Shown: positions 10,574 to 64,000 of the stretch, one piece after another
Numbering within the stretch: the stretch's first letter is position 1
Layout of the letters: every line of letters begins with the position of its first letter
Made by a program: the position numbers and the translations under genes
Notes under the pieces: generated by a model
Database searches by the model: none
The model's input: the letters and a program-made list of their open reading frames with translations, nothing else
Told to the model about the DNA's origin: nothing
NCBI GenBank assembly: GCA_038087875.1
Contig: CM075991.1
Coordinates: forward strand, 13,642,001-13,706,000
Length of the DNA: 64,000 nucleotides
From: Malacoraja senta
Taxonomy: Eukaryota
Direction: 5' to 3'

Positions 10574-10577
10574 TTAG

Positions 10578-40400: not shown

Positions 40401-41166
40401 TCATTGAAAGTAGGCATGCAGGTGCAGCAGGCAGTGAAGAAAGCGAATGGTATGTTGGCTTTCATAGCAAGAGGATTTGAGTATAGGAGCAGGGAGGTTC
40501 TACTGCAGTTGTACAGGGTCTTGGTGAGACCACACCTGGAGTATTGCATACAGTTTTGGTCTCCAAATCTGAGGAAGGACATTATAGCCATAGAGGGAGT
40601 GCAGAGAAGGTTCACCAGACTGATTCCTGGGATGTCAGGACTTTCATATGAAGAAAGACTGGATAGACTTGGCTTATACTCGCTAGAATTTAGGAGATTG
40701 GGAGGGATCTTATAGAAACGTACAGAATTCTTATGGGGTTGGACAGGCTAGATGCAGGAAGATTGTTCCCGATGTTGGGGAAGTCCAGGACAAGGGGTCA
40801 CAGCTTGAGGATAAGGGGGAAATCCTTTAAGACCGAGATGAGGAAAAACTTTTTCACACAGAGTGGTTAATCTCTGGAACTCTCTGCCACAGAGGGTAGT
40901 TGAGGCCAGTTCATTGGCTATATTTAAGAGGGAGTTAGATGTGGCCCTTGTGGCTAAGGGGATCAGGGGGTATGGAGAGAAGGCAGGTACGGGATACTGA
41001 GTTGGATGATCAGCCATGATCATATTGAATGGCGGTGCAGGCTCGAAGGGCCAAATGGCTTACTCCTGCACCTATTTTCTATTTATCTATGTATATGATC
41101 ACAATGAATGGTGGCGCTGGCTCGAAGGGCCGAATGTACTCCTCCTGCACCTATTTTCTATGTTAC
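37440..41166 (+). mobile_element. CR1 3' fragment (37440-37880, tail 41095-41166) split by a long decayed CR1 ORF2 copy (37881-41094)
   Basis: ORFs 38208-40715 carry EN (CLNARS, GDFN, SDH) and RT (KFADD) motifs with stops and frameshifts. The host UTR cagccatga|tcacaatg is split with atga duplicated. Confidence 0.92.
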
Positions 41167-43083
41167 TAAGTTACTCCCGCACTTTGTCTAATTGCAGAGA
41201 AGGAAGTTGGAACATTTCAAACATTAAAATGTTATGTTAATTTGATTTTTCAGCATCAAGTGTACCTGGATTTGGTCTTTATGGATGTCATAGGAAGGTA
41301 AGGTACCTATTTCTAACTCTCTTCAATTTAATGGAATAATTGTGTTACATTATTGATGGCTGTTCCCAATTTGTTTCTTCAACATCGAGGAGCTCGCAGT
41401 CTCTGGTAGAGACCGATGTCGGGAAGCTCCAAAGAACGCAAAAGGTTCGACTAGACCCCGAGTGAGCTGTGATTGAACCCCCCGATGCAGGAGCCCCGAC
41501 ACGGACGGCCCGACCGCCGGCTACGGGAGTCCCGTCAACGGAAGGCTCGAGGCCCCAGACCATGGGAGACCAAAGAAGGAAAGAGTTTGAACTTTGTGTT
41601 CTGTTGTTTTTTATTGGTATGAGTGGATGGTAAATGATATTCCTCGTGTTGCAAACATAAATTTTTTGCAACACGTGCCACCCCATGCTTCAATTGTGAG
41701 TAAACACAGTGCTGGAGGAACTTGGTGGGTTTGACAACCTCTGAAGAAATGGACAGATGACTAATTGGGGCGGGAGCTCTCAGTCTGAAATATGGGGGAG
41801 AGCTGGAAATGAGGTGGGGGTTGGGCAATGCCTGACAAGTGATGGGTGGATTACAGGTGATTGGGTGATGGGCAAATGGATGGAGTAAGTGCCAAAGGCT
41901 GAAGGTGAAAGTGATAAAACATGTTGGATAAGGACAAGAACAAGAACTGAAATGTAAAACCAGTGTGAGATGGGGTTGGAAGGTAAAAGGGAAATGTGGA
42001 CAAGGAGTTGAGAGATGAGCATACTTCCCTTCATTAACTAAGTAATAACTCAATAATAATAATAACTAAATAATAATAATAATAACTAAATAATAATAAT
42101 AATGACTAAATAATAATACCAACTAAATAGTAATACCAACTAACTAGTCCTTTCTTGTACGCTCATCTCTCAAACAGACCCATATTCCCTCTCTCTGTTC
42201 CACCCATCTCTCTCCTAGTTTCATATTTCTGTTATCTCCTTATTTGGCATTTTGTCCCTCTCACCTTGAGCCTCTGGCACTCACTCCATCCAAATGCTAA
42301 TCACGCCTCACATGTACCACCTATTTACTTGCTGACTTTGTCCTGCGTGCCTCTGCCAATTTTCACTCTCTTTCATCAGTCTGAGTTAGGTTGCTGACCT
42401 GAGATGTCATCTGTCCATTCCACTTGCAGTCAGGCAGATTGTGCCTGTACTGCTGTATGCCTCCAGCACTTTTGTCTTTGGACAGAGCCATGTTCCCCGG
42501 TTGTAGTTGGCTCCTGTTACAGGGAGTGTGGAGTTTAATATTTTTGACTGAAACTCTGGGGGATTGGGTTTTCCAGGTATTTTTAACCATCTGGACACCA
42601 CTGAATGTTTGTTTATATCTAATGTTCAAATGTCCACGTGAAGAGTAAGGTATCGGGCAACAAGGTTGGGAGAACACTTGTGAAATATAATGGGTATTTG
42701 ATGTAACTGGGGTGTGCTGTGCTTGTAAATTGTGTCAGTGCTGGAGCAACTCGATGGGTGCAGCAACATCGCTGGAGAACATGTATTGGTAATTCTGGGT
42801 AGGGACTCTTCAGACATTAATCTCTTAAGGTAGTCAAAATATATTCGACTACCTTAATATTGGTCCAATCTGTAGGAGTCCTGACTGCAGAGACACAATG
42901 GTCCTGGTTGGAGATACATGTGAAGGCATTGTCCACATGTCCCAAGTGTTTTACCTTGAGGACTAGAATCTTCTCACCCAGGACTGTCCGACCCACTGAG
43001 TTACTCCCACACTTTGTCTAATTGTAGAGAAGGAAGTTGGAACATTTCAATCATTAAAATGTTATGTTAATTAGATTTTTCAG

Positions 43084-43127
43084 CATCAAGTCTACCTGGA
43101 TTTGGTCTTTATGGATGTCATAGGAAG
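43084..43127 (+). ncRNA. Representative 44-nt exon-like cassette present once per monomer
   Basis: tttttcag|catcaagtctacctggatttggtctttatggatgtcataggaag|gtaagg. AG and GT are both intact in 10 of 13 copies. Confidence 0.45.
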
Positions 43128-46100
43128 GTAAGGCACTTATTTCTAACCCTCTTAAGTTTAATGGGATAAATGTGTTACATTATTGATGGCTGTTCCCAAT
43201 TTGTTTCTTCAACATCGAGGAGCTCGCAGTCTCTGGTAGAGACCGATGTCGGGATGCTCCAAAGAACGCAAAAGATTCGACTAGACCCCGAGTGAGCTGT
43301 GATTGAAACCCCCGATGCAGGACCCCCGACACGGACGGCCCGACCCCCGGCTACGGGAGTCAAGATTGTCCCATCAATGGAAGGCTCGAGGCACCAGACC
43401 AAAGAAGGGAAGAGTTTGAACTTTGTGTTCTGTTGCTTTTTATTGGTATGAGTGTATGGTAAATGAAATTCCTCGTGTTGCAAAGCATACTTTTTTTGCA
43501 ACACGAGCCACCCCATGCTTGAATCGTGAGTAAATACACAGTGCTGGAGGAACTTGGTGGGTTTGACAACCTCTGAAGAAATGGGCAGATGACTCATTGG
43601 GTCCGGAGCTCTCAGTCTGAAATATGGGGGAGAGCTAGAAATGAGGTGGGGGTTGGGCACTGCCTGACAAGTGATGGGTGGATTACAGGTGAGTGGGTGA
43701 TGGGCAAATGGATGGAGAAAATGCCAAAGGCTGAAGATGGAAGTGATCAAACATGTTGGATAAGGACAAGAACTGTGAAATGTAAAACCAGGGTGAGGTG
43801 GGGTTGGAAGGTAAAAGGGAAATATGGGACAGTTGAGAGATGAGCATATGTCCCTTCATTAACTAAGTAACAATAATAACTAAACAATAGTAATAACTAA
43901 ATAATAATAATAACAATAATGATAATAACTAAATGATAATAGTAACAATAATGGTAAGAACTAAATAATGATAAGAACTAAATGATAAGAACTAAATAAT
44001 ACCAAGTAACTAGTCCTTTCTTGTACGCTCATCTCTCAAACAGTTCCATATTCCCTCTCTCCCTTCCACCCATATCTCTCCTAGTTTCACTGTTCTCTCC
44101 TTATTTGGCATTTTGAGCCTTTGGCACTCACTCCATCCATATGCTAATCACGCCTCGCATGTACCACCTATTTACTTGCTGACTTTGTCCTGCGTGCCTC
44201 TGCCTCTTTTCACTCTCTTTCATCAGTCTGAGGAAGGTTGCTGACCTGAGATGTCATCTGTCCATTCCACTTGCAGTCAGGCAGATTGTGCCTGAACTGC
44301 TGAATGCCTCCAGCACTTTGTCTTTGGACAGAGCCATATTCCCTGGTTGTAGTTGGCTCCTGTTTCAGGGAATGTAGAGTTTAATATTTTTGACTGAAAC
44401 TCTGGGGTGTTGGGTTTTTCTAGGAATTTTCTAACCATCTCGACAACACTAAATGTTTGTTTATATCTAACGTTTAAATGTCCACATGAAGAGTAATGCA
44501 TCTGGGCAACAAGTTTGGGAGAACACTTGTGAAATATATTGGGTATTTGATGTGCTTGTAAATTGTGTCAGCGCTGGAGCAACTCGATGGGTACAGCAAC
44601 ATCGCTGGAGAACATGGATTGGTAATTCTGGGCTGGGACTCTTCAGACCTTAAACTCTTCAGGTAGTCTAAATATATTCAACTACCTTAATATTGGTCCA
44701 ATCTGTGGGAGTCCTGACTGCAGAGACACAATGGTCCTGGTTGGAGATACATCTCCAGGCATTGTCCACATAAAACGAGGTATTCTAGTTTTACCTTGAG
44801 GACTAGAATCTTCTCACTGAGGACTGTCCGACCCACTAAGTTACTCCCGCACTTTGTCTAATTGTAGAGAAGGAAGTTGGAACATTTCAAACATTAAAAT
44901 GTTATGTTAATTTGATTTTTCAGCATCAAGTGTACCTGGATTTGGTCTTTATGGATGTCATAGGAAGGTAAGGTACCTATTTCTAACTCTCTTCAATTTA
45001 ATGGAATAATTGGGTTACATTATTGATGGCTGTTCCCAATTTGTTTCTTCAACATCGAGGAGCTCGCAGTCTCTGGTAGAGACCGATGTCGGGAAGCTCC
45101 AAAGAACGCAAAAGGTTCGACTAGACCCCGAGTGAGCTGTGATTGAACCCCCCGATGCAGGAGCCCCGACACGGACGGCCCGACCGCCGGCTACGGGAGT
45201 CCCGTCAACGGAAGGCTCGAGGCCCCAGACCATGGGAGACCAAAGAAGGAAAGAGTTTGAACTTTGTGTTCTGTTGTTTTTTATTGGTATGAGTGGATGG
45301 TAAATTATATTCCTCGTGTTGCAAACATAAATTTTTTGCAACACGTGCCACCCCATGCTTCAATTGTGAGTAAATACAGTGCTGGAGGAACTTGGTGGGT
45401 TTGACAACCTCTGAAGAAATGGACAGATGACTAATTGGGGCGGGAGCTCTCAGTCTGAAATATGGGGGAGAGCTGGAAATGAGGTGGGGGTTGGGCAATG
45501 CCTGACAAGTGATGGGTGGATTACAGGTGATTGGGTGATGGGCAAATGGATGGAGTAAGTGCCAAAGGCTGAAGGTGAAAGTGATAAAACATGTTGGATA
45601 AGGACAAGAACAAGAACTGAAATGTAAAACCAGTGTGAGATGGGGTTGGAAGGTAAAAGGGAAATGTGGACAAGGAGTTGAGAGATGAGCATACATCCCT
45701 TCATTAACTAAGTAATAACTAAATAATAATAACTAAATAATAATAATAACTAAATAATAATAATAACTAAATAATAATAATAACTAAATAATAATAATAA
45801 TAACTAAATAATAATACCAACTAAATAGTAATACCAACTAACTAGTCCTTTCTTGTACGCTCATCTCTCAAACAGACCCATATTCCCTCTCTCTGTTCCA
45901 CCCATCTCTCTCCTAGTTTCATATTTCTGTTATCTCCTTATTTGGCATTTTGTCCCTCTCACCTTGAGCCTCTGGCACTCACTCCATCCAAATGCTAATC
46001 ACGCCTCACATGTACCACCTATTTACTTGCTGACTTTGTCCTGCGTGCCTCTGCCAATTTTCACTCTCTTTCATCAGTCTGAGGTAGGTTGCTGACCTGA

Positions 46101-49100
46101 GATGTCATCTGTCCATTCCACTTGCAGTCAGGCAGATTGTGCCTGAGCAGGTGAATGCCTCCAGCACTTTGTCTTTGGACAGAGCCATGTTCCCCGGTTG
46201 TAGTTGGCTCCTGTTACAGGGAGTGTGGAGTTTAATATTTTTGACTGAAACTCTGGGGGATTGGGTTTTCCAGGTATTTTTAACCATCTGGACACCACTG
46301 AATGTTTGTTTATATCTAACGTTCAAATGTCCACGTGAAGAGTAAGGTATCGGGCAACAAGGTTGGGAGAACACTTGTGAAATATAATGGGTATTTGATG
46401 TAACTGGGGTGTGCTGTGCTTGTAAATTGTGTCAGTGCTGGAGCAACTCGATGGGTGCAGCAACATCGCTGGAGAACATGTATTGGTAATTCTGGGTAGG
46501 GACTCTTCAGACATTAATCTCTTAAGGTAGTCAAAATATATTCGACTACCTTAATATTGGTCCAATCTGTAGGAGTCCTGACTGCAGAGACACAATGGTC
46601 CTGGTTGGAGATACATGTGAAGGCATTGTCCACATGTCCCAAGTGTTTTACCTTGAGGACTAGAATCTTCTCACCCAGGACTGTCCGACCCACTGAGTTA
46701 CTCCCACACTTTGTCTAATTGTAGAGAAGGAAGTTGGAACATTTCAATCATTAAAATGTTATGTTAATTAGATTTTTCAGCATCAAGTCTACCTGGATTT
46801 GGTCTTTATGGATGTCATAGGAAGGTAAGGCACTTATTTCTAACCCTCTTAAGTTTAATGGGATAAATGTGTTACATTATTGATGGCTGTTCCCAATTTG
46901 TTTCTTCAACATCGAGGAGCTCGCAGTCTCTGGTAGAGACCGATGTCGGGATGCTCCAAAGAACGCAAAAGATTCAACTAGACCCCGAGTGAGCTGTGAT
47001 TGAAACCCCCGATGCAGGACCCCCGACACGGACGGCCCGACCCCCGGCTACGGGAGTCAAGATTGTCCCATCAATGGAAGGCTCGAGGCACCAGACCAAA
47101 GAAGGGAAGAGTTTGAACTTTGTGTTCTGTTGCTTTTTTTTGGTATGAGTGTATGGTAAATGAAATTCCTCGTGTTGCAAAGCATACTTTTTTTGCAACA
47201 CGAGCCACCCCATGCTTGAATCGTGAGTAAATACACAGTGCTGGAGGAACTTGGTGGGTTCGACAACCTCTGAAGAAATGGGCAGATGACTCATTGGGTC
47301 CAGAGCTCTCAGTCTGAAATACGGGGGAGAGCTAGAAATGAGGTGGGGGTTGGGCACTGCCTGACAAGTGATGGGTGGATTACAGGTGAGTGGGTGATGG
47401 GCAAATGGATGGAGAAAATGCCAAAGGCTGAAGATAGAAGTGATCAAACGTGTTGGATAAGGACAAGAACTGTGAAATGTAAAACCAGGGTGAGGTGGGG
47501 TTGGAAGGTAAAAGGGAAATATGGGACAGTTGAGAGATGAGCATATGTCCCTTCATTAACTAAGTAACAATAATAACTAAACAATAGTAATAACTAAATA
47601 ATAATAATAACAATAATGATAATAACTAAATGATAATAGTAACAATAATGGTAAGAACTAAATAATGATAAGAACTAAATGATAAGAACTAAATAATACC
47701 AAGTAACTAGTCCTTTCTTGTACGCTCATCTCTCAAACAGTTCCATATTCCCTCTCTCCCTTCCACCCATATCTCTCCTAGTTTCATTGTTCTCTCCTTA
47801 TTTGGCATTTTGAGCCTTTGGCACTCACTCCATCCATATGCTAATCACGCCTCGCATGTACCACCTATTTACTTGCTGACTTTGTCCTGCGTGCCTCTGC
47901 CTCTTTTCACTCTCTTTCATCAGTCTGAGGAAGGTTGCTGACCTGAGATGTCATCTGTCCATTCCACTTGCAGTCAGGCAGATTGTGCCTGAACTGCTGA
48001 ATGCCTCCAGCACTTTGTCTTTGGACAGAGCCATATTCCCTGGTTGTAGTTGGCTCCTGTTTCAGGGAATGTAGAGTTTAATATTTTTGACTGAAACTCT
48101 GGGGTGTTGGGTTTTTCTAGGAATTTTCTAACCATCTCGACAACACTAAATGTTTGTTTATATCTAACGTTTAAATGTCCACATGAAGAGTAATGCATCT
48201 GGGCAACAAGTTTGGGAGAACACTTGTGAAATATATTGGGTATTTGATGTGCTTGTAAATTGTGTCAGCGCTGGAGCAACTCGATGGGTACAGCAACATC
48301 GCTGGAGAACATGGATTGGTAATTCTGGGTTGGGACTCTTCAGACCTTAAACTCTTCAGGTAGTCTAAATATATTCAACTACCTTAATATTGGTCCAATC
48401 TGTGGGAGTCCTGACTGCAGAGACACAATGGTCCTGGTTGGAGATACATCTCCAGGCATTGTCCACATAAAACGAGGTATTCTAGTTTTACCTTGAGGAC
48501 TAGAATCTTCTCACTGAGGACTGTCCGACCCACTAAGTTACTCCCGCACTTTGTCTAATTGTAGAGAAGGAAGTTGGAACATTTCAAACATTAAAATGTT
48601 ATGTTAATTTGATTTTTCAGCATCAAGTGTACCTGGATTTGGTCTTTATGGATGTCATAGGAAGGTAAGGTACCTATTTCTAACTCTCTTCAATTTAATG
48701 GAATAATTGGGTTACATTATTGATGGCTGTTCCCAATTTGTTTCTTCAACATCGAGGAGCTCGCAGTCTCTGGTAGAGACCGATGTCGGGAAGCTCCAAA
48801 GAATGCAAAAGGTTCGACTAGACCCCGAGTGAGCTGTGATTGAACCCCCCGATGCAGGAGCCCCGACACGGACGGCCCGACCGCCGGCTACGGGAGTCCC
48901 GTCAACGGAAGGCTCGAGGCCCCAGACCATGGGAGACCAAAGAAGGAAAGAGTTTGAACTTTGTGTTCTGTTGTTTTTTATTGGTATGAGTGGATGGTAA
49001 ATGATATTCCTCGTGTTGCAAACATAAATGTTTTGCAACACGTGCCACCCCATGCTTCAATTGTGAGTAAATACAGTGCTGGAGGAACTTGGTGGGTTTG

Positions 49101-52100
49101 ACAACCTCTGAAGAAATGGACAGATGACTAATTGGGGCGGGAGCTCTCAGTCTGAAATATGGGGGAGAGCTGGAAATGAGGTGGGGGTTGGGCAATGCCT
49201 GACAAGTGATGGGTGGATTACAGGTGATTGGGTGATGGGCAAATGGATGGAGTAAGTGCCAAAGGCTGAAGGTGAAAGTGATAAAACATGTTGGATAAGG
49301 ACAAGAACAAGAACTGAAATGTAAAACCAGTGTGAGATGGGGTTGGAAGGTAAAAGGGAAATGTGGACAAGGAGTTGAGAGATGAGCATACATCCCTTCA
49401 TTAACTAAGTAATAACTAAATAATAATAACTAAATAATAATAATAACTAAATAATAATAATAACTAAATAATAATAATAATAACTAAATAATAATACCAA
49501 CTAAATAGTAATACCAACTAACTAGTCCTTTCTTGTACGCTCATCTCTCAAACAGACCCATATTCCCTCTCTCTGTTCCACCCATCTCTCTCCTAGTTTC
49601 ATATTTCTGTTATCTCCTTATTTGGCATTTTGTCCCTCTCACCTTGAGCCTCTGGCACTCACTCCATCCAAATGCTAATCACGCCTCACATGTACCACCT
49701 ATTTACTTGCTGACTTTGTCCTGCGTGCCTCTGCCAATTTTCACTCTCTTTCATCAGTCTGAGTTAGGTTGCTGACCTGAGATGTCATCTGTCCATTCCA
49801 CTTGCAGTCAGGCAGATTGTGCCTGTACTGCTGTATGCCTCCAGCACTTTTGTCTTTGGACAGAGCCATGTTCCCCGGTTGTAGTTGGCTCCTGTTACAG
49901 GGAGTGTGGAGTTTAATATTTTTGACTGAAACTCTGGGGGATTGGGTTTTCCAGGTATTTTTAACCATCTGGACACCACTGAATGTTTGTTTATATCTAA
50001 TGTTCAAATGTCCACGTGAAGAGTAAGGTATCGGGCAACAAGGTTGGGAGAACACTTGTGAAATATAATGGGTATTTGATGTAACTGGGGTGTGCTGTGC
50101 TTGTAAATTGTGTCAGTGCTGGAGCAACTCGATGGGTGCAGCAACATCGCTGGAGAACATGTATTGGTAATTCTGGGTAGGGACTCTTCAGACATTAATC
50201 TCTTAAGGTAGTCAAAATATATTCGACTACCTTAATATTGGTCCAATCTGTAGGAGTCCTGACTGCAGAGACACAATGGTCCTGGTTGGAGATACATGTG
50301 AAGGCATTGTCCACATGTCCCAAGTGTTTTACCTTGAGGACTAGAATCTTCTCACCCAGGACTGTCCGACCCACTGAGTTACTCCCACACTTTGTCTAAT
50401 TGTAGAGAAGGAAGTTGGAACATTTCAATCATTAAAATGTTATGTTAATTAGATTTTTCAGCATCAAGTCTACCTGGATTTGGTCTTTATGGATGTCATA
50501 GGAAGGTAAGGCACTTATTTCTAACCCTCTTAAGTTTAATGGGATAAATGTGTTACATTATTGATGGCTGTTCCCAATTTGTTTCTTCAACATCGAGGAG
50601 CTCGCAGTCTCTGGTAGAGACCGATGTCGGGATGCTCCAAAGAACGCAAAAGATTCGACTAGACCCCGAGTGAGCTGTGATTGAAACCCCCGATGCAGGA
50701 CCCCCGACACGGACGGCCCGACCCCCGGCTACGGGAGTCAAGATTGTCCCATCAATGGAAGGCTCGAGGCACCAGACCAAAGAAGGGAAGAGTTTGAACT
50801 TTGTGTTCTGTTGCTTTTTATTGGTATGAGTGTATGGTAAATGAAATTCCTCGTGTTGCAAAGCATACTTTTTTTGCAACACGAGCCACCCCATGCTTGA
50901 ATCGTGAGTAAATACACAGTGCTGGAGGAACTTGGTGGGTTTGACAACCTCTGAAGAAATGGGCAGATGACTCATTGGGTCCGGAGCTCTCAGTCTGAAA
51001 TATGGGGGAGAGCTAGAAATGAGGTGGGGGTTGGGCACTGCCTGACAAGTGATGGGTGGATTACAGGTGAGTGGGTGATGGGCAAATGGATGGAGAAAAT
51101 GCCAAAGGCTGAAGATGGAAGTGATCAAACATTTTGGATAAGGACAAGAACTGTGAAATGTAAAACCAGGGTGAGGTGGGGTTGGAAGGTAAAAGGGAAA
51201 TATGGGACAGTTGAGAGATGAGCATATGTCCCTTCATTAACTAAGTAACAATAATAACTAAACAATAGTAATAACTAAATAATAATAATAACAATAATGA
51301 TAATAACTAAATGATAATAGTAACAATAATGGTAAGAACTAAATAATGATAAGAACTAAATGATAAGAACTAAATAATACCAAGTAACTAGTCCTTTCTT
51401 GTACGCTCATCTCTCAAACAGTTCCATATTCCCTCTCTCCCTTCCACCCATATCTCTCCTAGTTTCACTGTTCTCTCCTTATTTGGCATTTTGAGCCTTT
51501 GGCACTCACTCCATCCATATGCTAATCACGCCTCGCATGTACCACCTATTTACTTGCTGACTTTGTCCTGCGTGCCTCTGCCTCTTTTCACTCTCTTTCA
51601 TCAGTCTGAGGAAGGTTGCTGACCTGAGATGTCATCTGTCCATTCCACTTGCAGTCAGGCAGATTGTGCCTGAACTGCTGAATGCCTCCAGCACTTTGTC
51701 TTTGGACAGAGCCATATTCCCTGGTTGTAGTTGGCTCCTGTTTCAGGGAATGTAGAGTTTAATATTTTTGACTGAAACTCTGGGGTGTTGGGTTTTTCTA
51801 GGAATTTTCTAACCATCTCGACAACACTAAATGTTTGTTTATATCTAACGTTTAAATGTCCACATGAAGAGTAATGCATCTGGGCAACAAGTTTGGGAGA
51901 ACACTTGTGAAATATATTGGGTATTTGATGTGCTTGTAAATTGTGTCAGCGCTGGAGCAACTCGATGGGTACAGCAACATCGCTGGAGAACATGGATTGG
52001 TAATTCTGGGCTGGGACTCTTCAGACCTTAAACTCTTCAGGTAGTCTAAATATATTCAACTACCTTAATATTGGTCCAATCTGTGGGAGTCCTGACTGCA

Positions 52101-55100
52101 GAGACACAATGGTCCTGGTTGGAGATACATCTCCAGGCATTGTCCACATAAAACGAGGTATTCTAGTTTTACCTTGAGGACTAGAATCTTCTCACTGAGG
52201 ACTGTCCGACCCACTAAGTTACTCCCGCACTTTGTCTAATTGTAGAGAAGGAAGTTGGAACATTTCAAACATTAAAATGTTATGTTAATTTGATTTTTCA
52301 GCATCAAGTGTACCTGGATTTGGTCTTTATGGATGTCATAGGAAGGTAAGGTACCTATTTCTAACTCTCTTCAATTTAATGGAATAATTGGGTTACATTA
52401 TTGATGGCTGTTCCCAATTTGTTTCTTCAACATCGAGGAGCTCGCAGTCTCTGGTAGAGACCGATGTCGGGAAGCTCCAAAGAACGCAAAAGGTTCGACT
52501 AGACCCCGAGTGAGCTGTGATTGAACCCCCCGATGCAGGAGCCCCGACACGGACGGCCCGACCGCCGGCTACGGGAGTCCCGTCAACGGAAGGCTCGAGG
52601 CCCCAGACCATGGGAGACCAAAGAAGGAAAGAGTTTGAACTTTGTGTTCTGTTGTTTTTTATTGGTATGAGTGGATGGTAAATGATATTCCTCGTGTTGC
52701 AAACATAAATTTTTTGCAACACGTGCCACCCCATGCTTCAATTGTGAGTAAATACAGTGCTGGAGGAACTTGGTGGGTTTGACAACCTCTGAAGAAATGG
52801 ACAGATGACTAATTGGGGCGGGAGCTCTCAGTCTGAAATATGGGGGAGAGCTGGAAATGAGGTGGGGGTTGGGCAATGCCTGACAAGTGATGGGTGGATT
52901 ACAGGTGATTGGGTGATGGGCAAATGGATGGAGTAAGTGCCAAAGGCTGAAGGTGAAAGTGATAAAACATGTTGGATAAGGACAAGAACAAGAACTGAAA
53001 TGTAAAACCAGTGTGAGATGGGGTTGGAAGGTAAAAGGGAAATGTGGACAAGGAGTTGAGAGATGAGCATACATCCCTTCATTAACTAAGTAATAACTAA
53101 ATAATAATAACTAAATAATAATAATAACTAAATAATAATAATAACTAAATAATAATAATAATAACTAAATAATAATACCAACTAAATAGTAATACCAACT
53201 AACTAGTCCTTTCTTGTACGCTCATCTCTCAAACAGACCCATATTCCCTCTCTCTGTTCCACCCATCTCTCTCCTAGTTTCATATTTCTGTTATCTCCTT
53301 ATTTGGCATTTTGTCCCTCTCACCTTGAGCCTCTGGCACTCACTCCATCCAAATGCTAATCACGCCTCACATGTACCACCTATTTACTTGCTGACTTTGT
53401 CCTGCGTGCCTCTGCCAATTTTCACTCTCTTTCATCAGTCTGAGGTAGGTTGCTGACCTGAGATGTCATCTGTCCATTCCACTTGCAGTCAGGCAGATTG
53501 TGCCTGAGCAGGTGAATGCCTCCAGCACTTTGTCTTTGGACAGAGCCATGTTCCCCGGTTGTAGTTGGCTCCTGTTACAGGGAGTGTGGAGTTTAATATT
53601 TTTGACTGAAACTCTGGGGGATTGGGTTTTCCAGGTATTTTTAACCATCTGGACACCACTGAATGTTTGTTTATATCTAACGTTTAAATGTCCACATGAA
53701 GAGTAATGCATCTGGGCAACAAGTTTGGGAGAACACTTGTGAAATATATTGGGTATTTGATGTGCTTGTAAATTGTGTCAGAGCTGGAGCAACTCGATGG
53801 GTACAGCAACATCGCTGGAGAACATGGATTGGTAATTCTGGGTTGGGACTCTTCAGACATTAAACTCTTCAGGTAGTCTAAATATATTCGACTACCTTAA
53901 TATTGGTCCAATCTGTAGGAGTCCTGACTGCAGAGACACAATGGTCCTGGTTGGAGATACATCTCCAGGCATTGTCCACATGTCCACATAAAACAAGGTA
54001 TTCTAGTTTTACCTTGAGGACTAGAATCTTCTCACTGAGGACTGTCCGACCCACTAAGTTACTCCCGCACTTTGTCTAATTGTAGAGAAGGAAGTTGGAA
54101 CATTTCAAACATTAAAATGTTATGTTAATTTGATTTTTCAGCATCAAGTGTACCTGGATTTGGTCTTTATGGATGTCATAGGAAGGTAAGGTACCTATTT
54201 CTAACTCTCTTCCATTAAATGGAATAATTGGGTTACATTATTGATGGCTGTTCCCAATTTGTTTCTTCAACATCGAGGAGCTCGCAGTCTCTGGTAGAGA
54301 CCAATGTCGGGAAGCTCCAAAGAACGCGAAAGGTTCGACTAGACCCCGAGTGAGCTGTGATTGAACCCCCCGATGCAGGAGCCCCGATACGGACGGCCCG
54401 ACCGCCGGCTACGGGAGTCCCGTCAACGGAAGGCTCGATGACCCAGACCATGGGAGACCAAAGAAGGAAAGAGTTTGAACTTTGTTCTGTTGTTTTTTAT
54501 TGGTATGAGTGGATGGTAAATGATATTCCTCGTGTTGCAAACATAATTTTTTTGCAACACGTGGCACCCCATGCTTCAATTGTGAGTAAATACAGTGCTG
54601 GAGGAACTTGGTGGGTTTGACAACCTCTGAAGAAATGGACAGATGACTAATTGGGTCCGGAGCTCTCAGTCTGAAATATGGGGGAGAGCTGGAAATGAGG
54701 TGGGGGTTGGGCACTGCCTGACAAGTGATGGGTGGATTACAGGTGATTGGGTGATGGGCAAATGGATGGAGTAAGTGCCAAAGGCTGAAGGTGAAAGTGA
54801 TAAAACATGTTGGATAAGGACAAGATCAAGAACTGAAATGTAAAACCAGTGTGAGATGGGGTTGGAAGGTAAAAGGGAAATGTGGACAAGGAGTTGAGAG
54901 ATGAGCATACTTCCCTTCATTAACTAAGTAATAACTAAATAATAATAATAACTAAATAATAATAATCACTAAATGATAATAATAATGACTAAATAATAAT
55001 ACCAACTAAATAGTAATACCAACTAACTAGTCCTTTCTTGTACGCTCATCTCTCAAACAGTCCCATATTCCCTCTCTCTCTTCCACCCATCTCTCTCCTA

Positions 55101-56093
55101 GTTTCATATTTCTGTTATCTCCTTATTTGGCATTTTGTCCCTCTCACCTTGAGCCTCTGGCACTCACTCCATCCATATGCTAATCACGCCTCGCATGTAC
55201 CACCTATTTACTTGCTGACTTTGTCCTGCGTGCCTCTGCCTCTTTTCACTCTCTTTCATCAGTCTGAGGAAGGTTGCTGACCTGAGATGTCATCTGTCCA
55301 TTCCACTTGCAGTCAGGCAGATTGTGCGTGAACTGCTGAATGCCTCCAGCACTTTGTCTTTGGACAGAGCCATATTCCCTGGTTGTAGTTGGCTCCTGTT
55401 TCAGGGAATGTAGAGTTTAATATTTTTGACTGAAACTCTGGGGTGTTGGGTTTTTCTAGGAATTTTCTAACCATCTCGACAACACTAAATGTTTGTTTAT
55501 ATCTAACGTTTAAATGTCCACATGAAGAGTAATGCATCTGGGCAACAAGTTTGGGAGAACACTTGTGAAATATATTGGGTATTTGATGTGCTTGTAAATT
55601 GTGTCAGAGCTGGAGCAACTCGATGGGTACAGCAACATCGCTGGAGAACATGGATTGGTAATTCTGGGTTGGGACTCTTCAGACATTAAACTCTTCAGGT
55701 AGTCTAAATATATTCGACTACCTTAATATTGGTCCAATCTGTAGGAGTCCTGACTGCAGAGACACAATGGTCCTGGTTGGAGATACATCTCCAGGCATTG
55801 TCCACATGTCCACATAAAACAAGGTATTCTAGTTTTACCTTGAGGACTAGAATCTTCTCACTGAGGACTGTCCGACCCACTAAGTTACTCCTGCACTTTG
55901 TCTAATTGTAGAGAAGGAAGTTGGAACATTTCAAACATTAAAATGTTATGTTAATTTGATTTTTCTGCATCAAGTCTACCTGGATTTGGTCTTTATAGAT
56001 GTCATAGGAAGGTAAGGTACGTATTTCTAACCCTCTTCAGTTTAATGGAATAATTGTGTTACATTATTGATGGCTGTTCCAAATTTGTTTCTT

Positions 56094-56369
56094 AGTTACG
56101 TTTTTTGACCTATGGACCTATCTCCTAAGTTGTATTATTGATAGTTTATCTTACTTTTCTAATTTCTTCTTTATTTCTTTATTTTCCTTGTCTATAAATT
56201 TAAATAAATAATTAGAGGCAACGTTAATATTTAACCGATAAAGGAGGACCTACTACTTTGGTAACTGGGTACCCGGAACCATGGATACTTAATATGAAAT
56301 CGTTATACAAAGTTTGTATTGGGTTGGACTATGATATGCAGATACCTCTAATAAAACAAATTAAAACAT
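56094..56369 (+). mobile_element. Retroposed AT-rich fragment (L1-type 3' UTR-like) with 14-bp TSD
   Basis: TSD CAAATTTGTTTCTT at 56080-56093 and 56370-56383; ends in aataaa plus an A-rich tail. Confidence 0.8.
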
Positions 56370-56413
56370 CAAATTTGTTTCTTCAACATCGAGGAGCTCG
56401 TAGTCTCTGGTAG

Positions 56414-57170
56414 GAATTGAAGTGACTGAGTGAGATATGGCGGAACCAAGGACTCACGGTTAACCCTGAAATATTGGTGTGTAATATAACAATTATATAT
56501 TGAATCGTCGGATTAATAAGTATTGAGACGTTAACCGAGACCAAGGTACCCCCGTATCTCACAGAAAGTCCGCCTTAGACTGGTTGTTAAGAGAGGAAAT
56601 CCTCCACGCGAAGGTCAGGAATTGAAGTGACCGAGTGAGATACGGCAGAACCAAGGACTCACGGTTAACCCTGAACTATTGGTGTGTAATAATATAAGTA
56701 TTTTAAAAAATGGGTAATGGTATGGACACCAGTTGTCACCCGGACTGGCCATTACATCAGCTATGTTTCTTGCATCCAGAAATGCATTATTAGACCTTCA
56801 GGCGTATGTCGGGAAGGGGGTTCCAAGGATATGGGTGTGTTATCAAGGGCCCAGAGTGTAATATGGAAAAAGGATAAAAAAAGAAATTATAAAAAGGCCA
56901 TTCAGTTGTGGATCGATCATTGTAACGGAGAAAAGGCACGGTCATTAACGGCCAGTTGGCAGAGTAAGGCCTTGAAACTAGTAATTCCCCTGACCGAGGG
57001 GGGTCAGGAGATGTCGGTGACCGTATTAAAACAGTAATGTAGGCATGCTAAGGAAAGTAAGGATCGTCAGGAGAGAGGGAGACAAAATAAGGCCGAGGTA
57101 GATAAAGTTGGTGCTGGCATAGATTTGGGAGGTGATGACGAGGGTTGGGGTTTGGGTTAGGGTTAGGGTT
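56414..57170. other. Unclassified ~760-bp insert ending in a short degenerate TTAGGG tract
   Basis: Replaces ~250 bp of the monomer; internal ~60-bp direct repeat (56413/56618); ends agggttggggtttgggttagggttagggtt. Confidence 0.75.
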
Positions 57171-57989
57171 TTTTGGAACACGAACCACCCCATGCTTGAA
57201 TCATGAGTAAATACACAGTGCTGGAGGAACCTGGTGGGTTTGACAACCTCTGAAGAAATGGGCAGATGACTCATTGGGTCCGGAGCTCTCAGTCTGAAAT
57301 AGGGGGGAGAGCTGGAAATGAGGTGGGGGTTGGGCACTGCCCGACAAGTGATGGGTGGATTAAAATGGATGGAGAAAATGCCAAAGGCTGAAGATGGAAG
57401 TGATCAAACGTGTTGGATAAGGACAAGAACTGTGAAATGTAAAACCAGGGTGAGGTGGGGTTGGAAGGTAAAAGGGAAATATGGGACAGTTGAGAGATGA
57501 GCATATGTCCCTTCATTAACTAAGTAACAATAATAACTAAACAATAGTAATAACTAAATAATAATAATAACAATAATGATAATAACTAAATGATAATAGT
57601 AACAATAATGGTAAGAACTAAATAATGATAAGAACTAAATGATAAGAACTAAATAATACCAAGTAACTAGTCCTTTCTTGTACGCTCATCTCTCAAACAG
57701 TTCCATATTCCCTCTCTCCCTTCCACCCATATCTCTCCTAGTTTCATTGTTCTCTCCTTATTTGGCATTTTGAGCCTTTGGCACTCACTCCATCCATATG
57801 CTAATCACGCCTCGCATGTACCACCTATTTACTTGCTGACTTTGTCCTGCGTGCCTCTGCCTCTTTTCACTCTCTTTCATCAGTCTGAGGAAGGTTGCTG
57901 ACCTGAGATGTCATCTGTCCATTCCACTTGCAGTCAGGCAGATTGTGCCTGAACTGCTGAATGCCTCCAGCACTTTGTCTTTGGACAGA

Positions 57990-60354
57990 GGGTTTAGAGT
58001 CGTTAGGGTTTAGAGTCGTTAGGGTTTAGAGTCGTTAGGGTTTAGAGTCGTTAGGGTTTAGAGTCGTTAGGGTTTAGAGTCGTTAGGGTTTAGAGTCGTT
58101 AGGGTTTAGAGTCGTTAGGGTTTAGAGTCGTTAGGGTTTAGAGTCGTTAGGGTTTAGAGTCGTTAGGGTTTAGAGTCGTTAGGGTTTAGAGTCGTTAGGG
58201 TTTAGAGTCGTTAGGGTTTAGAGTCGTTAGGGTTTAGAGTCGTTAGGGTTTAGAGTCGTTAGGGTTTAGAGTCGTTAGGGTTTAGAGTCGTTAGGGTTTA
58301 GAGTCGTTAGGGTTTAGAGTCGTTAGGGTTTAGAGTCGTTAGGGTTTAGAGTCGTTAGGGTTTAGAGTCGTTAGGGTTTAGAGTCGTTAGGGTTTAGAGT
58401 CGTTAGGGTTTAGAGTCGTTAGGGTTTAGAGTCGTTAGGGTTTAGAGTCGTTAGGGTTTAGAGTCGTTAGGGTTTAGAGTCGTTAGGGTTTAGAGTCGTT
58501 AGGGTTTAGAGTCGTTAGGGTTTAGAGTCGTTAGGGTTTAGAGTCGTTAGGGTTTAGAGTCGTTAGGGTTTAGAGTCGTTAGGGTTTAGAGTCGTTAGGG
58601 TTTAGAGTCGTTAGGGTTTAGAGTCGTTAGGGTTTAGAGTCGTTAGGGTTTAGAGTCGTTAGGGTTTAGAGTCGTTAGGGTTTAGAGTCGTTAGGGTTTA
58701 GAGTCGTTAGGGTTTAGAGTCGTTAGGGTTTAGAGTCGTTAGGGTTTAGAGTCGTTAGGGTTTAGAGTCGTTAGGGTTTAGAGTCGTTAGGGTTTAGAGT
58801 CGTTAGGGTTTAGAGTCGTTAGGGTTTAGAGTCGTTAGGGTTTAGAGTCGTTAGGGTTTAGAGTCGTTAGGGTTTAGAGTCGTTAGGGTTTAGAGTCGTT
58901 AGGGTTTAGAGTCGTTAGGGTTTAGAGTCGTTAGGGTTTAGAGTCGTTAGGGTTTAGAGTCGTTAGGGTTTAGAGTCGTTAGGGTTTAGAGTCGTTAGGG
59001 TTTAGAGTCGTTAGGGTTTAGAGTCGTTAGGGTTTAGAGTCGTTAGGGTTTAGAGTCGTTAGGGTTTAGAGTCGTTAGGGTTTAGAGTCGTTAGGGTTTA
59101 GAGTCGTTAGGGTTTAGAGTCGTTAGGGTTTAGAGTCGTTAGGGTTTAGAGTCGTTAGGGTTTAGAGTCGTTAGGGTTTAGAGTCGTTAGGGTTTAGAGT
59201 CGTTAGGGTTTAGAGTCGTTAGGGTTTAGAGTCGTTAGGGTTTAGAGTCGTTAGGGTTTAGAGTCGTTAGGGTTTAGAGTCGTTAGGGTTTAGAGTCGTT
59301 AGGGTTTAGAGTCGTTAGGGTTTAGAGTCGTTAGGGTTTAGAGTCGTTAGGGTTTAGAGTCGTTAGGGTTTAGAGTCGTTAGGGTTTAGAGTCGTTAGGG
59401 TTTAGAGTCGTTAGGGTTTAGAGTCGTTAGGGTTTAGAGTCGTTAGGGTTTAGAGTCGTTAGGGTTTAGAGTCGTTAGGGTTTAGAGTCGTTAGGGTTTA
59501 GAGTCGTTAGGGTTTAGAGTCGTTAGGGTTTAGAGTCGTTAGGGTTTAGAGTCGTTAGGGTTTAGAGTCGTTAGGGTTTAGAGTCGTTAGGGTTTAGAGT
59601 CGTTAGGGTTTAGAGTCGTTAGGGTTTAGAGTCGTTAGGGTTTAGAGTCGTTAGGGTTTAGAGTCGTTAGGGTTTAGAGTCGTTAGGGTTTAGAGTCGTT
59701 AGGGTTTAGAGTCGTTAGGGTTTAGAGTCGTTAGGGTTTAGAGTCGTTAGGGTTTAGAGTCGTTAGGGTTTAGAGTCGTTAGGGTTTAGAGTCGTTAGGG
59801 TTTAGAGTCGTTAGGGTTTAGAGTCGTTAGGGTTTAGAGTCGTTAGGGTTTAGAGTCGTTAGGGTTTAGAGTCGTTAGGGTTTAGAGTCGTTAGGGTTTA
59901 GAGTCGTTAGGGTTTAGAGTCGTTAGGGTTTAGAGTCGTTAGGGTTTAGAGTCGTTAGGGTTTAGAGTCGTTAGGGTTTAGAGTCGTTAGGGTTTAGAGT
60001 CGTTAGGGTTTAGAGTCGTTAGGGTTTAGAGTCGTTAGGGTTTAGAGTCGTTAGGGTTTAGAGTCGTTAGGGTTTAGAGTCGTTAGGGTTTAGAGTCGTT
60101 AGGGTTTAGAGTCGTTAGGGTTTAGAGTCGTTAGGGTTTAGAGTCGTTAGGGTTTAGAGTCGTTAGGGTTTAGAGTCGTTAGGGTTTAGAGTCGTTAGGG
60201 TTTAGAGTCGTTAGGGTTTAGAGTCGTTAGGGTTTAGAGTCGTTAGGGTTTAGAGTCGTTAGGGTTTAGAGTCGTTAGGGTTTAGAGTCGTTAGGGTTTA
60301 GAGTCGTTAGGGTTTAGAGTCGTTAGGGTTTAGAGTCGTTAGGGTTTAGAGTCG
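57990..60354 (+). repeat. Telomere-like satellite zone A: (TTAGGGTTTAGAGTCG)n, ~148 copies
   Basis: Apparently perfect 16-bp periodicity, G-rich strand running toward the window end. Confidence 0.98.
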
Positions 60355-63300
60355 TTAGGGTTTAGGGTCGTTAGGGTTTAGAGTCGTTAGGGTTTAGAGT
60401 CGTTAGGGTTTAGGGTCGTTAGGGTTTAGGGTCGTTAGGGTTTAGGGTCGTTAGGGTTTAGGGTCGTTAGGGTTTAGGGTCGTTAGGGTTTAGGGTCGTT
60501 AGGGTTTAGGGTCGTTAGGGTTTAGGGTCGGTTTAGGGTCGTTAGGGTTTAGGGTCGTTAGGGTTTAGGGTCGTTAGGGTTTAGGGTCGTTAGGGTTTAG
60601 GGTCGTTAGGGTTTAGGGTCGTTAGGGTTTTGGGTCGTTAGGGTTTAGGGTCGTTAGGGTTTAGGGTCGTTAGGGTTTAGGGTCGTTAGGGTTTAGGGTC
60701 GTTAGGGTTTAGGGTCGTTAGGGTTTAGGGTCGTTAGGGTTTAGGTCGTTAGGGTTTAGGGTCGTTAGGGTTTTAGGGTCGTTAGGGTTTAGGGTCGTTA
60801 GGGTTTAGGGTCGTTAGGGTTTAGGGTCGTTAGGGTTTAGGGTCGTTAGGGTTTAGGGTCGTTAGGGTTTAGGGTCGTTAGGGTTTAGGGTCGTTAGGGT
60901 TTAGGGTCGTTAGGGTTTAGGGTCGTTAGGGTTTAGGGTCGTTAGGGTTTAGGGTCGTTAGGGTTTTAGGGTCGTTAGGGTTTAGGGTCGTTAGGGTTTA
61001 GGGTCGTTAGGGTTTAGGGTCGTTAGGGTTTAGGGTCGTTAGGGTTTAGGGTCGTTAGGGTTTAGGGTCGTTAGGGTTTAGGGTCGTTAGGGTTTAGGGG
61101 TCGTTAGGGTTTAGGGTCGTTAGGGTTTAGGGTCGTTAGGGTTTAGGGTCGTTAGGGTTTAGGGTCGTTAGGGTTTAGGGTCGTTAGGGTTTAGGGTCGT
61201 TAGGGTTTAGGGTCGTTAGGGTTTAGGGTCGTTAGGGTTTAGGGTCGTTAGGGTTTAGGGTCGTTAGGGTTTAGGGTCGTTAGGGTTTAGGGTCGTTAGG
61301 GTTTAGGGTCGTTAGGGTTTAGGGTCGTTAGGGTTTAGGGTCGTTAGGGTTTAGGGTCGTTAGGGTTTAGGGTCGTTAGGGTTTAGGGTCGTTAGGGTTT
61401 AGGGTCGTTAGGGTTTAGGGTCGTTAGGGTTTAGGGTCGTTAGGGTTTAGGGTCGTTAGGGTTTAGGGTCGTTAGGGTTTAGGGTCGTTAGGGTTTAGGG
61501 TCGTTAGGGTTTAGGGTCGTTAGGGTTTAGGGTCGTTAGGGTTTAGGGTCGTTAGGGTTTAGGGTCGTTAGGGTTTAGGGTCGTTAGGGTTTAGGGTCGT
61601 TAGGGTTTAGGGTCGTTAGGGTTTAGGGTCGTTAGGGTTTAGGGTCGTTAGGGTTTAGGGTCGTTAGGGTTTAGGGTCGTTAGGGTTTAGGGTCGTTAGG
61701 GTTTAGGGTCGTTAGGGTTTAGGGTCGTTAGGGTTTAGGGTCGTTAGGGTTTAGGGTCGTTAGGGTTTAGGGTCGTTAGGGTTTAGGGTCGTTAGGGTTT
61801 AGGGTCGTTAGGGTTTAGGGTCTTTGGGTTAGGTTTAGGGTCGTTAGGGTTTAGGGTCGTTAGGGTTTAGGGTCGTTAGGGTTTAGGGTCGTTAGGGTTT
61901 AGGGTCGTTAGGGTTTAGGGTCGTTAGGGTTTAGGGTCGTTAGGGTTTAGGGTCGTTAGGGTTTAGGGTCGTTAGGGTTTAGGGTCGTTAGGGTTTAGGG
62001 TCGTTAGGGTTTAGGGTCGTTAGGGTTTAGGGTCGTTAGGGTTTAGGGTCGTTAGGGTTTAGGGGTCGTTAGGGTTTAGGGTCGTTAGGGTTTAGGGTCG
62101 TTAGGGTTTAGGGTCGTTAGGGTTTAGGGTCGTTAGGGTTTAGGGTCGTTAGGGTTTAGGGTCGTTAGGGTTTAGGGTCGTTAGGGTTTAGGGTCGTTAG
62201 GGTTTAGGGTCGTTAGGGTTTAGGGTCGTTAGGGTTTAGGGTCGTTAGGGTTTAGGGTCGTTAGGGTTTAGGGTCGTTAGGGTTTAGGGTTTAGGTTTTG
62301 GGTCGTTAGGGTTTAGGGTCGTTAGGGTTTAGGGTCGTTAGGGTTTAGGGTCGTTAGGGTTTAGGGTCGTTAGGGTTTAGGGTCGTTAGGGTTTAGGGTC
62401 GTTAGGGTTTAGGGTCGTTAGGTTTAGGGTCGTTAGGGTTTAGGGTCGTTAGGGTTTTAGGGTCGTTAGGGTTTAGGGTCGTTAGGGTTTAGGGTCGTTA
62501 GGGTTTAGGGTCGTTAGGGTTTAGGGTCGTTAGGGTTTAGGGTCGTTAGGGTTTAGGGTCGTTAGGGTTTAGGGTCGTTAGGGTTTAGGGTCGTTAGGGT
62601 TTAGGGTCGTTAGGGTTTAGGGTCGTTAGGGTTTAGGGTCGTTAGGGTTTAGGGTCGTTAGGGTTTAGGGTCGTTAGGGTTTAGGGTCGTTAGGGTTTAG
62701 GGTCGTTAGGGTTTAGGGTCGTTAGGGTTTAGGGTCGTTAGGGTTTAGGGTCGTTAGGGTTTAGGGTCGTTAGGGTTTAGGGTCGTTAGGGTTTAGGGTC
62801 GTTAGGGTTTAGGGTCGTTAGGGTTTAGGGTCGTTAGGGTTTAGGGTCGTTAGGGTTTAGGGTCGTTAGGGTTTAGGGTCGTTAGGGTTTAGGGTCGTTA
62901 GGGTTTAGGGTCGTTAGGGTTTAGGGTCGTTAGGGTTTAGGGTCGTTAGGGTTTAGGGTCGTTAGGGTTTAGGGTCGTTAGGGTTTAGGGTCGTTAGGGT
63001 TTAGGGTCGTTAGGGTTTAGGGTCGTTAGGGTTTAGGGTCGTTAGGGTTTAGGGTCGTTAGGGTTTAGGGTCGTTAGGGTTTAGGGTCGTTAGGGTTTAG
63101 GGTCGTTAGGGTTTAGGGTCGTTAGGGTTTAGGGTCGTTAGGGTTTAGGGTCGTTAGGGGTTTAGGGTCGTTAGGGTTTAGGGTCGTTAGGGTTTAGGGT
63201 CGTTAGGGTTTAGGGTCGTTAGGGTTTAGGGGTCGTTAGGGTTTAGGGTCGTTAGGGTTTAGGGTCGTTAGGGTTTAGGGTCGTTAGGGTTTAGGGTCGT

Positions 63301-63860
63301 TAGGGTTTAGGGTCGTTAGGGTTTAGGGGTCGTTAGGGTTTAGGGTCGTTAGGGTTTAGGGTCGTTAGGGTTTAGGGTCGTTAGGGTTTAGGGTCGTTAG
63401 GGTTTAGGGTCGTTAGGGTTTAGGGTCGTTAGGGTTTAGGGTCGTTAGGGTTTAGGGTCGTTAGGGTTTAGGGTCGTTAGGGTTTAGGGTCGTTAGGGTT
63501 TAGGGTCGTTAGGGTTTAGGGTCGTTAGGGTTTAGGGTCGTTAGGGTTTAGGGTCGTTAGGGTTTAGGGTCGTTAGGGTTTAGGGTCGTTAGGGTTTAGG
63601 GTCGTTAGGGTTTAGGGTCGTTAGGGTTTAGGGTCGTTAGGGTTTAGGGTCGTTAGGGTTTAGGGTCGTTAGGGTTTAGGGTCGTTAGGGTTTAGGGTCG
63701 TTAGGGTTTAGGGTCGTTAGGGTTTAGGGTCGTTAGGGTTTAGGGTCGTTAGGGTTTAGGGTCGTTAGGGTTTAGGGTCGTTAGGGTTTAGGGTCGTTAG
63801 GGTTTAGGGTCGTTAGGGTTTAGGGTCGTTAGGGTTTAGGGTCGTTAGGGTTTAGGGTCG
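60355..63860 (+). repeat. Telomere-like satellite zone B: (TTAGGGTTTAGGGTCG)n, ~215-220 copies
   Basis: Single A>G change relative to zone A; sporadic homopolymer indels. Confidence 0.98.
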
Positions 63861-64000
63861 TTAGGGTTTAGGGGGGTTAGGGTTTAGGGGGTTAGGGTTT
63901 AGGGGGGTTAGGGTTTAGGGGGGTTAGGGTTTAGGGGGGTTAGGGTTTAGAGGGGTTAGGGTTTAGAGGGGTTAGGGTTTAGAGGGGTTAGGGTTTAGAG
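63861..64000 (+). repeat. Telomere-like satellite zones C/D: TTAGGGTTTAGGGGGG then TTAGGGTTTAGAGGGG
   Basis: The ~16-bp period is retained and TCG is replaced by GGG; the tract runs off the window end. Confidence 0.9.

What the first reader, a model, noticed from the sequence alone, without database searches (positions are those of the whole stretch)
57990..64000. Six kb of a non-canonical 16-bp composite telomere-like repeat in vertebrate-type DNA
Seen: the unit is TTAGGG + TTTAG(A/G)G + TCG, with the G-rich strand pointing to the window end and no run of pure (TTAGGG)n noticed in 6 kb. Established: vertebrate telomerase makes (TTAGGG)n, which has no CpG; TTTAGGG is the plant-type heptamer; POT1 binds TTAGGGTTAG, which the unit lacks. 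Inference: this is either an unusually long, homogeneous proximal variant-repeat domain or a lineage-specific terminal repeat. It carries a methylatable CpG every 16 bp and probably has altered shelterin binding.
Basis: partly seen in the sequence, partly recalled or inferred. Interest (0 to 1): 0.85.

Follow-up and report, generated by a model that had tools for sequence, protein, structure and literature searches.

The report
Telomere-derived 16-base satellite in cartilaginous fish
A cartilaginous-fish sequence ends in at least 6 kb of a very uniform 16-base repeat built from telomere-like pieces, which is also abundant in sequencing data from a second organism; it is likely a young satellite lying just inside chromosome ends, with a small untested chance that it has replaced the universal vertebrate telomere repeat.

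Summary
Observation confirmed and refined. Window 57989-64000 is a 16-bp array (about 376 copies) of TTAGGGTTTAG plus 5 variable bases, with no TTAGGGTTAG. It is four uniform blocks in series, not a random A/G mix: AGTCG (147 perfect copies), GGTCG (3.5 kb), then CpG-free GGGGG and AGGGG in the last 140 bp. It is joined abruptly, over a 2-base overlap, to a young 1.84-kb satellite in LINE-rich chondrichthyan DNA. Contigs of public runs hold the first variant at very high depth in two samples of organism A and in organism B, but not as an array in organism C. So it is a real, high-copy, lineage-restricted family, not a base-calling artefact. Whether it is terminal could not be tested: no genome is held and the window ends inside the array. 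Best reading (0.6): a telomere-derived higher-order repeat amplified and homogenised by recombination inside a canonical telomere. Bold reading (about 0.13): it is the chromosome cap itself, as compound repeats are in bees. No paper describing it was found in 10 searches, and the scan had not noted it on other DNA.

The parts
57989..60354 (+). Block A: partial unit plus 147 identical TTAGGGTTTAGAGTCG units
60355..63860 (+). Block B: TTAGGGTTTAGGGTCG units; 201 of 218 perfect; B-A-A interleave at 60355-60402; 10 of the 15 other deviants are one-base homopolymer length changes
63861..63939 (+). Block C: 5 units TTAGGGTTTAGGGGGG (one is a base short); no CpG
63940..64000 (+). Block D: 3 full and one partial TTAGGGTTTAGAGGGG units, running off the window
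57989..57990 (+). Junction: 2 bases (AG) shared by the truncated satellite unit and the array; no degenerate transition zone
57169..57990 (+). Truncated last unit of the 1.84-kb satellite, 98.8-98.9% identical (gaps excluded) to the units at 43492, 47189 and 50870
57140..57170 (+). Relic of about five 6-bp-period telomeric repeats (two canonical, three variant), G-rich strand +, at a rearrangement joint
   Evidence: 0.007 expected by chance for the canonical dimer in the flank
56094..57140 (.). Disrupted satellite unit: 276-bp insertion with a 14-bp target-site duplication (56080, 56370) and a 727-bp foreign segment with a 75-bp direct repeat
26707..56093 (+). 1.84-kb satellite array, LINE-interrupted up to about 41165, then a 3.69-kb two-unit higher-order repeat (like units 99.4-99.9% identical, unlike units 93.1-93.7%)

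Best explanation
The array is a 16-bp compound of two telomere-like sub-units sorted into four uniform blocks, and it is likely a young, high-copy satellite derived from the telomeric repeat that probably lies just inside a canonical TTAGGG telomere beyond the window. Shown: the unit, the blocks, the abrupt 2-base joint to a young satellite unit, and very high depth in two organisms. Inferred steps: (1) a TTAGGG dimer gained T and TCG in the proximal variant zone of a telomere; (2) the 16-mer was amplified by slippage, unequal exchange or copying of a telomeric circle and spread between ends by break-induced replication or gene conversion, each sweep leaving one uniform block; (3) a break in the 1.84-kb satellite at 57990 captured such an array through 2 bases of microhomology; (4) ordinary telomerase would still cap the true end. 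Predicted effect: a spacer that keeps about one TRF-type double-strand site per 16 bp but cannot serve as the POT1-bound overhang.
For: Four uniform blocks carry all four combinations of two variable sites (A/G at unit position 12; TC/GG at 14-15), which needs recombination or repeat mutation and cannot come from one fixed template (inference). The innermost block is the most perfect (0 of 147 deviants against 15 of 216 in block B, Fisher p = 6e-4), the reverse of an ageing telomerase product. No CpG-to-TpG/CpA unit was seen among 365 CpG units although flank CpG o/e is 0.35: young or rapidly homogenised. Summed contig depth on the array part is 437-452k (X1), 630-657k (X2), 49-51k (X6) and 27-39 (X8). 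The X1 and X2 profiles fit 16 single 31-mer records, about 30,000 each in X1; X2 fits the 50,000 cap of these data. That implies roughly 1,100-7,500 A-type copies against about 149 in the window (estimate). A 6-bp-period canonical relic lies at 57140-57170. TTAGGG is reported at chromosome ends in three carpet sharks, a freshwater stingray, the red stingray, manta rays and a reef shark and in 21 of 21 chordates tested with tidk. Local homogenisation and higher-order repeats inside canonical telomeres are described in Arabidopsis. The POT1-type decamer is absent from all four blocks.
Against: No canonical tract is seen in 6 kb, and a distal canonical telomere was not observed. The array starts perfect at the first base, directly after AG, the register in which vertebrate telomerase begins adding (recalled), as in a healed break. 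The AGTCG variant appears unchanged in a second organism (no other-letter row in the array), which a template would explain easily. The Arabidopsis examples I saw are 5-15 repeats long, far shorter than 147 or 218. The rise in homopolymer errors in block B fits thin read support near a contig tip but does not place a canonical tract. Blocks B-D and canonical repeats were not measured in any run. None of the passages read reports telomere sequence for a skate, guitarfish or electric ray, and the order of this fish was not determined.
Confidence: 0.6

Rival explanations
1. Interstitial or pericentromeric telomere-derived satellite, not near a present chromosome end (for example at an old fusion site or in a heterochromatin block).
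For: High copy number, lineage restriction and block homogenisation fit any satellite. The window end is not shown to be a contig end (no genome held).
Against: The order LINE-rich DNA, satellite, higher-order satellite, telomeric relic, G-rich array all in one polarity looks subtelomeric (inference). Homopolymer errors rise outward. FISH found no interstitial TTAGGG sites in the four species.
Confidence: 0.2
2. True telomere made by a telomerase whose RNA template has lengthened to a compound repeat, with paralogous or changing templates giving the blocks, as in bees and wasps.
For: Perfect array from the first base after a 2-base AG overlap; canonical-plus-variant architecture like Bombus TTAGGTTGGGG and Tetragonula TTTAGGTTAGG, whose motifs match their telomerase RNA templates; same variant in a second organism; blocks B-D keep four-G-tract quadruplex motifs; the estimated amount could supply about 1 kb per end from variant A alone (estimate).
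Against: Four blocks need four templates or added recombination. Vertebrate templates are 1.5-2 copies of a 6-nt repeat. The POT1-type site is absent. All chordates and elasmobranchs in the passages read are canonical. A 6-bp canonical relic lies 800 bp away.
Confidence: 0.07
3. True terminal repeat kept by recombination (ALT-like or roll-and-spread) with little or no telomerase contribution.
For: Serial uniform blocks and four-way variant combinations are what recombinational lengthening leaves (inference). No canonical tract in 6 kb.
Against: No telomerase-independent germ-line telomere is known to me in vertebrates (recalled). The shelterin overhang site is missing. No evidence on telomerase genes of this species was obtained.
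Confidence: 0.06
4. A single-end event: one unusually long proximal variant domain private to this chromosome end.
For: The joint itself was not seen in the 32 listed contig pieces (3,229 not shown). The single-copy depth of the runs was not measured.
Against: Even the most cautious depth ratio gives about 7 times the window's A-type copies in X1, and organism B holds the variant too.
Confidence: 0.04
5. Base-calling artefact, misassembly or contaminant telomere.
For: Library types of the runs are not on record; X1 or X2 may be the source; no listed piece bridges the joint. Blocks C and D are short and unverified.
Against: Present in a second organism and study, nearly absent in a third organism that shares the flank. 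147 error-free copies. No tandem array of the unit in metagenome or viral contigs.
Confidence: 0.03

Closest known systems
Proximal telomere variant repeats and their higher-order repeats (Arabidopsis, PMC11406999; human TVR haplotypes, bioRxiv 10.64898/2026.08.19.745664)
   Same: Units derived from the canonical repeat, grouped into a higher-order unit, locally homogenised, next to subtelomeric DNA, same strand polarity.
   Different: Here one 16-bp unit runs for hundreds of near-identical copies with no canonical interruptions, begins with no degenerate zone, and is a high-copy family shared with another organism. The examples read were 5-15 repeats (Arabidopsis) or analysed within the first 0.25-1 kb (human).
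Telomere-derived and subterminal satellites (telomere-like satellites of Solanum, rodent TTAGGG-type satellites, great-ape subterminal caps; all recalled, no call)
   Same: High copy, lineage-restricted, homogenised tandem DNA related to or abutting telomeres.
   Different: Short compound unit with one CpG; serial variant blocks; in a cartilaginous fish, where no such family turned up in my searches.
Compound telomerase-made telomeres of Hymenoptera (Bombus, Tetragonula; PMC9841428, PMC11814493)
   Same: Canonical repeat fused to a variant sub-repeat to give a longer fixed unit.
   Different: There the motif matches the telomerase RNA template and sits at ends; neither is shown here, and the four blocks argue against a single template.
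Canonical vertebrate telomere (TTAGGG)n, including sharks and rays (PMC7648076, PMC9858463, PMC12498223)
   Same: G-rich strand polarity; one TTAGGG in every unit.
   Different: No tandem TTAGGG, no TTAGGGTTAG, TAGGGTT at 62 per kb against 167 per kb, CpG present.

Membership tests
Canonical vertebrate telomere | Tandem (TTAGGG)n | tested here: not met
   0 TTAGGGTTAG in the array
Canonical vertebrate telomere | Single-strand POT1 site TTAGGGTTAG (as named in the finding) | tested here: not met
   0 occurrences
Canonical vertebrate telomere | Double-strand TRF1/TRF2 core TAGGGTT (motif recalled) | tested here: inconclusive
   371 sites, 62 per kb against 167 per kb in a canonical control; binding not tested
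Canonical vertebrate telomere | Physical chromosome end with 3' overhang | not testable with these tools
   no genome held; runs are contigs only
Proximal telomere variant-repeat / HOR zone | Units derived from the canonical repeat in telomeric polarity | tested here: met
Proximal telomere variant-repeat / HOR zone | Local homogenisation into blocks | tested here: met
   four blocks
Proximal telomere variant-repeat / HOR zone | Short, mixed zone with degenerate inner edge | tested here: not met
   147 perfect copies from the joint
Proximal telomere variant-repeat / HOR zone | Canonical tract on the distal side | not testable with these tools
   window ends inside the array
Telomere-derived satellite DNA | High copy number beyond one locus or short tract | tested here: met
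   depth 4.5e5-6.6e5 in organism A, 5e4 in B; about 1,100-7,500 copies estimated; single-copy depth not measured
Telomere-derived satellite DNA | Lineage-restricted | tested here: inconclusive
   high in A and B, one contig at depth 39 in C; 4 of 24 runs laid; contigs show presence, not absence
Telomere-derived satellite DNA | Not made by telomerase | not testable with these tools
   inferred from four blocks only
Compound telomerase-made telomere (Hymenoptera type) | Fixed unit of canonical plus variant sub-repeat | tested here: met
   comparison
Compound telomerase-made telomere (Hymenoptera type) | Motif matches the telomerase RNA template | not testable with these tools
   no genome held; no Rfam match in the window
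Compound telomerase-made telomere (Hymenoptera type) | Same motif at most chromosome ends | not testable with these tools
   one locus only

The most novel reading that the evidence does not exclude
A lineage of cartilaginous fishes has replaced TTAGGG at its chromosome ends with a 16-bp, CpG-bearing compound repeat, made by a lengthened telomerase template or kept by recombination, with shelterin changed to match: the first non-canonical vertebrate telomere.
Probability: 0.13. Interest if true: 0.92.

Novelty: new variant of a known kind. Interest (0 to 1): 0.5.

Why it matters
TTAGGG is treated as invariant in vertebrates, and annotation pipelines scan only for it or its one-base variants, so a 16-bp family like this would be missed. 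On the likely reading it is an unusually clean natural record of how telomeric DNA turns into satellite and spreads between ends, and a test bed for how much non-canonical, methylatable DNA shelterin tolerates next to a telomere. On the bold reading it would overturn the universality of the vertebrate telomere and give a natural case of telomerase and shelterin co-evolution. Existing long reads can decide between the two in hours.

Tried and rejected
No own genome was available, so other ends and the telomerase RNA could not be read. The run search used the flank (50000-57900), not the array; no RNA holder was listed. No listed piece bridged the joint, which proves nothing (32 listed, 3,229 not shown). 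Contaminant telomere: two tandem units gave 0 matches in metagenome contigs, a 22-base pattern 0 in viral contigs; a looser pattern gave 27 metagenome loci, all isolated matches in degenerate TTTAGGG-like tracts or unrelated DNA, none a tandem array. Viral telomeric repeats: rejected, no viral match and only LINE-type or low-complexity frames seen in the flank by eye. Telomere-targeted retroelement for 56414-57140: no long frame, no other copy in the window, no Rfam hit. Literature: 10 searches; searches returned nothing, and none of the others listed a paper on this repeat. The library lacks most subscription papers, including older ray and skate cytogenetics. The VGP supplement search showed no list of 'additional canonical motifs' (2 of 5 places in file 2 seen; media-4.xlsx too large to read, and it may bear on this). 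Earlier scan findings: no match to this array. The X6 record-partition fit has many free parameters and is illustrative only.
Full report
Observation. The array is real. It starts at 57989 and runs off the window: period 16, 375.6 copies, 99% matches. Every unit begins TTAGGGTTTAG and ends in five variable bases. Run-length parsing shows four blocks in series: AGTCG (147 identical copies, 58003-60354), GGTCG (60355-63860), GGGGG (5 units, 63861-63939) and AGGGG (63940 to the end). In block B, 201 of 218 parsed units are perfect, 2 are A-type at the boundary and 15 deviate otherwise, 10 of these by one base in a homopolymer. The array holds no TTAGGGTTAG; TAGGGTT occurs 371 times (62 per kb, against 167 per kb in a canonical control); 365 of its 366 C bases are in CpG.

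Organism and setting. The flank is rich in LINE-type frames. One ORF1-like frame has as best named relatives Hemitrygon akajei (65%), Scyliorhinus torazame (58%) and Callorhinchus milii (47%) among 36 hits, so this is a cartilaginous fish, probably a batoid; the order was not determined. From 26.7 kb the window is a 1.84-kb satellite that becomes a two-unit higher-order repeat from about 41 kb, with like units 99.4-99.9% identical. The last unit is broken by an insertion with a 14-bp target-site duplication and by a 727-bp foreign segment that ends in about five 6-bp-period telomeric repeats, two of them canonical (0.007 expected by chance). The satellite then resumes, 98.8-98.9% identical to its partners, and is cut at 57990, where the array begins over a shared AG with no degenerate zone. 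So the joint is young, and 6-bp repeats have existed in this genome.

Independent data. The run search on the flank listed 24 runs; I laid 4 on 57660-58034, which holds 46 bases of block A. Summed contig depth over 57998-58023 was 437-452k in X1 and 630-657k in X2 (organism A, two samples, one study), 49-51k in X6 (organism B, another study) and 27-39 in X8 (organism C), although all four cover the flank. Relative to the dispersed-repeat core at 57959-57971 the ratios are 13.7, 4.0, 0.52 and 0.0002. No other-letter row falls inside the array, so the laid depth is most likely the AGTCG variant. The four-bin profile of X1 and X2 matches 16 separate 31-mer records, about 30,000 each in X1. X2 equals 14 x 49,036 with 88% of its records read; these data cap k-mer depth at 50,000 (passages), and the X2/X1 ratio is 1.45 on the array against a median 5.8 on 25 flank bins, so X2 is probably saturated. 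Single-copy depth was not measured. Dividing by the low listed depths of X1 (about 4-27) gives roughly 1,100-7,500 copies (18-120 kb), against about 149 A-type copies in the window. X6 fits 3-6 records of 8,500-17,000 (loose fit) against low listed depths of 7-21. The tool warns that summed depth is not a copy number, X1 or X2 may be the source, library types are not on record, and contigs cannot prove absence in C. With the possible source left out, one independent study (organism B) holds the repeat. No listed piece bridges the joint (32 listed, 3,229 not shown). No tandem array of the unit was found in metagenome or viral contigs.

Mechanism. Three features point to recombination rather than one telomerase template. 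All four combinations of two variable sites occur as blocks. The innermost block is the most perfect (0 of 147 against 15 of 216, p = 6e-4), though this may partly reflect thinner read support outward. No CpG transition is seen in 365 units in a genome with flank CpG o/e 0.35. I infer that a TTAGGG dimer gained T and TCG, was amplified by slippage, unequal exchange or circle copying, spread by break-induced replication or conversion, and was captured at a break in the satellite. A canonical telomere is predicted further out; this is not shown. Against it: the start directly after AG is the telomerase register (recalled), the same variant occurs in a second organism, and 6 kb pass with no canonical tract. 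Blocks B-D keep four-G-tract motifs and block A has none.

Comparison with what is known. TTAGGG FISH marks all ends in three carpet sharks (PMC7648076, passages) and a freshwater stingray (PMC9858463, passages). Assemblies show TTAGGG at ends in the red stingray (10.1101/2025.06.08.657570, passages), manta rays (10.64898/2026.10.27.761883, passages) and the grey reef shark (PMC12498223, passages). tidk found it in 21 of 21 chordates (PMC11814493, passages). [quoted passage not shown] PMC8081667 (passages) added nothing on this point. Vertebrate templates are 1.5-2 copies of a 6-nt repeat (PMC8480181, passages). Homogenised and higher-order variant repeats inside canonical telomeres are described in Arabidopsis (PMC11406999, passages and Discussion), and variant haplotypes shared between ends in humans (10.64898/2026.08.19.745664, passages), on a much smaller scale. 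Compound repeats are true, template-matched telomeres in Hymenoptera (PMC9841428, passages), which keeps the bold reading alive. The array works like a telomere-derived satellite or an extreme higher-order variant zone; it fails the sequence tests for a canonical telomere; the tests for a compound telomere that matter (template, terminal position) could not be run.

Verdict. Real, high-copy, apparently lineage-restricted and not found in 10 literature searches of an open-access library or 7 look-ups of earlier scan findings. New variant of a known kind; interest 0.5. Probability about 0.13 that it is the chromosome cap itself, which would deserve about 0.9.

Noticed in passing
window 41165-56093: 1.84-kb satellite organised as a 3.69-kb two-unit higher-order repeat; the units at 53512-55336 are intermediate (95% and 97.5%), suggesting a crossover between types. 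Each unit contains an AAT-rich tract and a short dispersed-repeat core.
   Followed up: partly
window 56094-56369: 276-bp AT-rich insertion with a 14-bp target-site duplication, no other copy in the window; probably a short retroelement fragment.
   Followed up: partly
window 56414-57170: 727-bp foreign segment with a 75-bp direct repeat (95%), ending in a 6-bp-period telomeric relic and replacing about 250 bp of satellite; may be a captured former chromosome end.
   Followed up: partly
window 14784-18801 (- strand): Nearly intact LINE: SGNH-esterase ORF1 (344-aa open stretch) followed by ORF2 in two frames (169 and 838 aa).
   Followed up: partly
window 5444-6315: About 870-bp self-complementary (inverted) region, 76% identity to its own reverse complement.
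   Followed up: no
window 6783-7382, 10579-11160, 20083-20369: Strand-skewed minisatellites with 35-, 39- and 39-bp units; the first and third contain CpG.
   Followed up: no
window 14459-15072 and 34378-34993: 616-bp inverted duplication at 98.9% identity that includes part of the LINE end.
   Followed up: no
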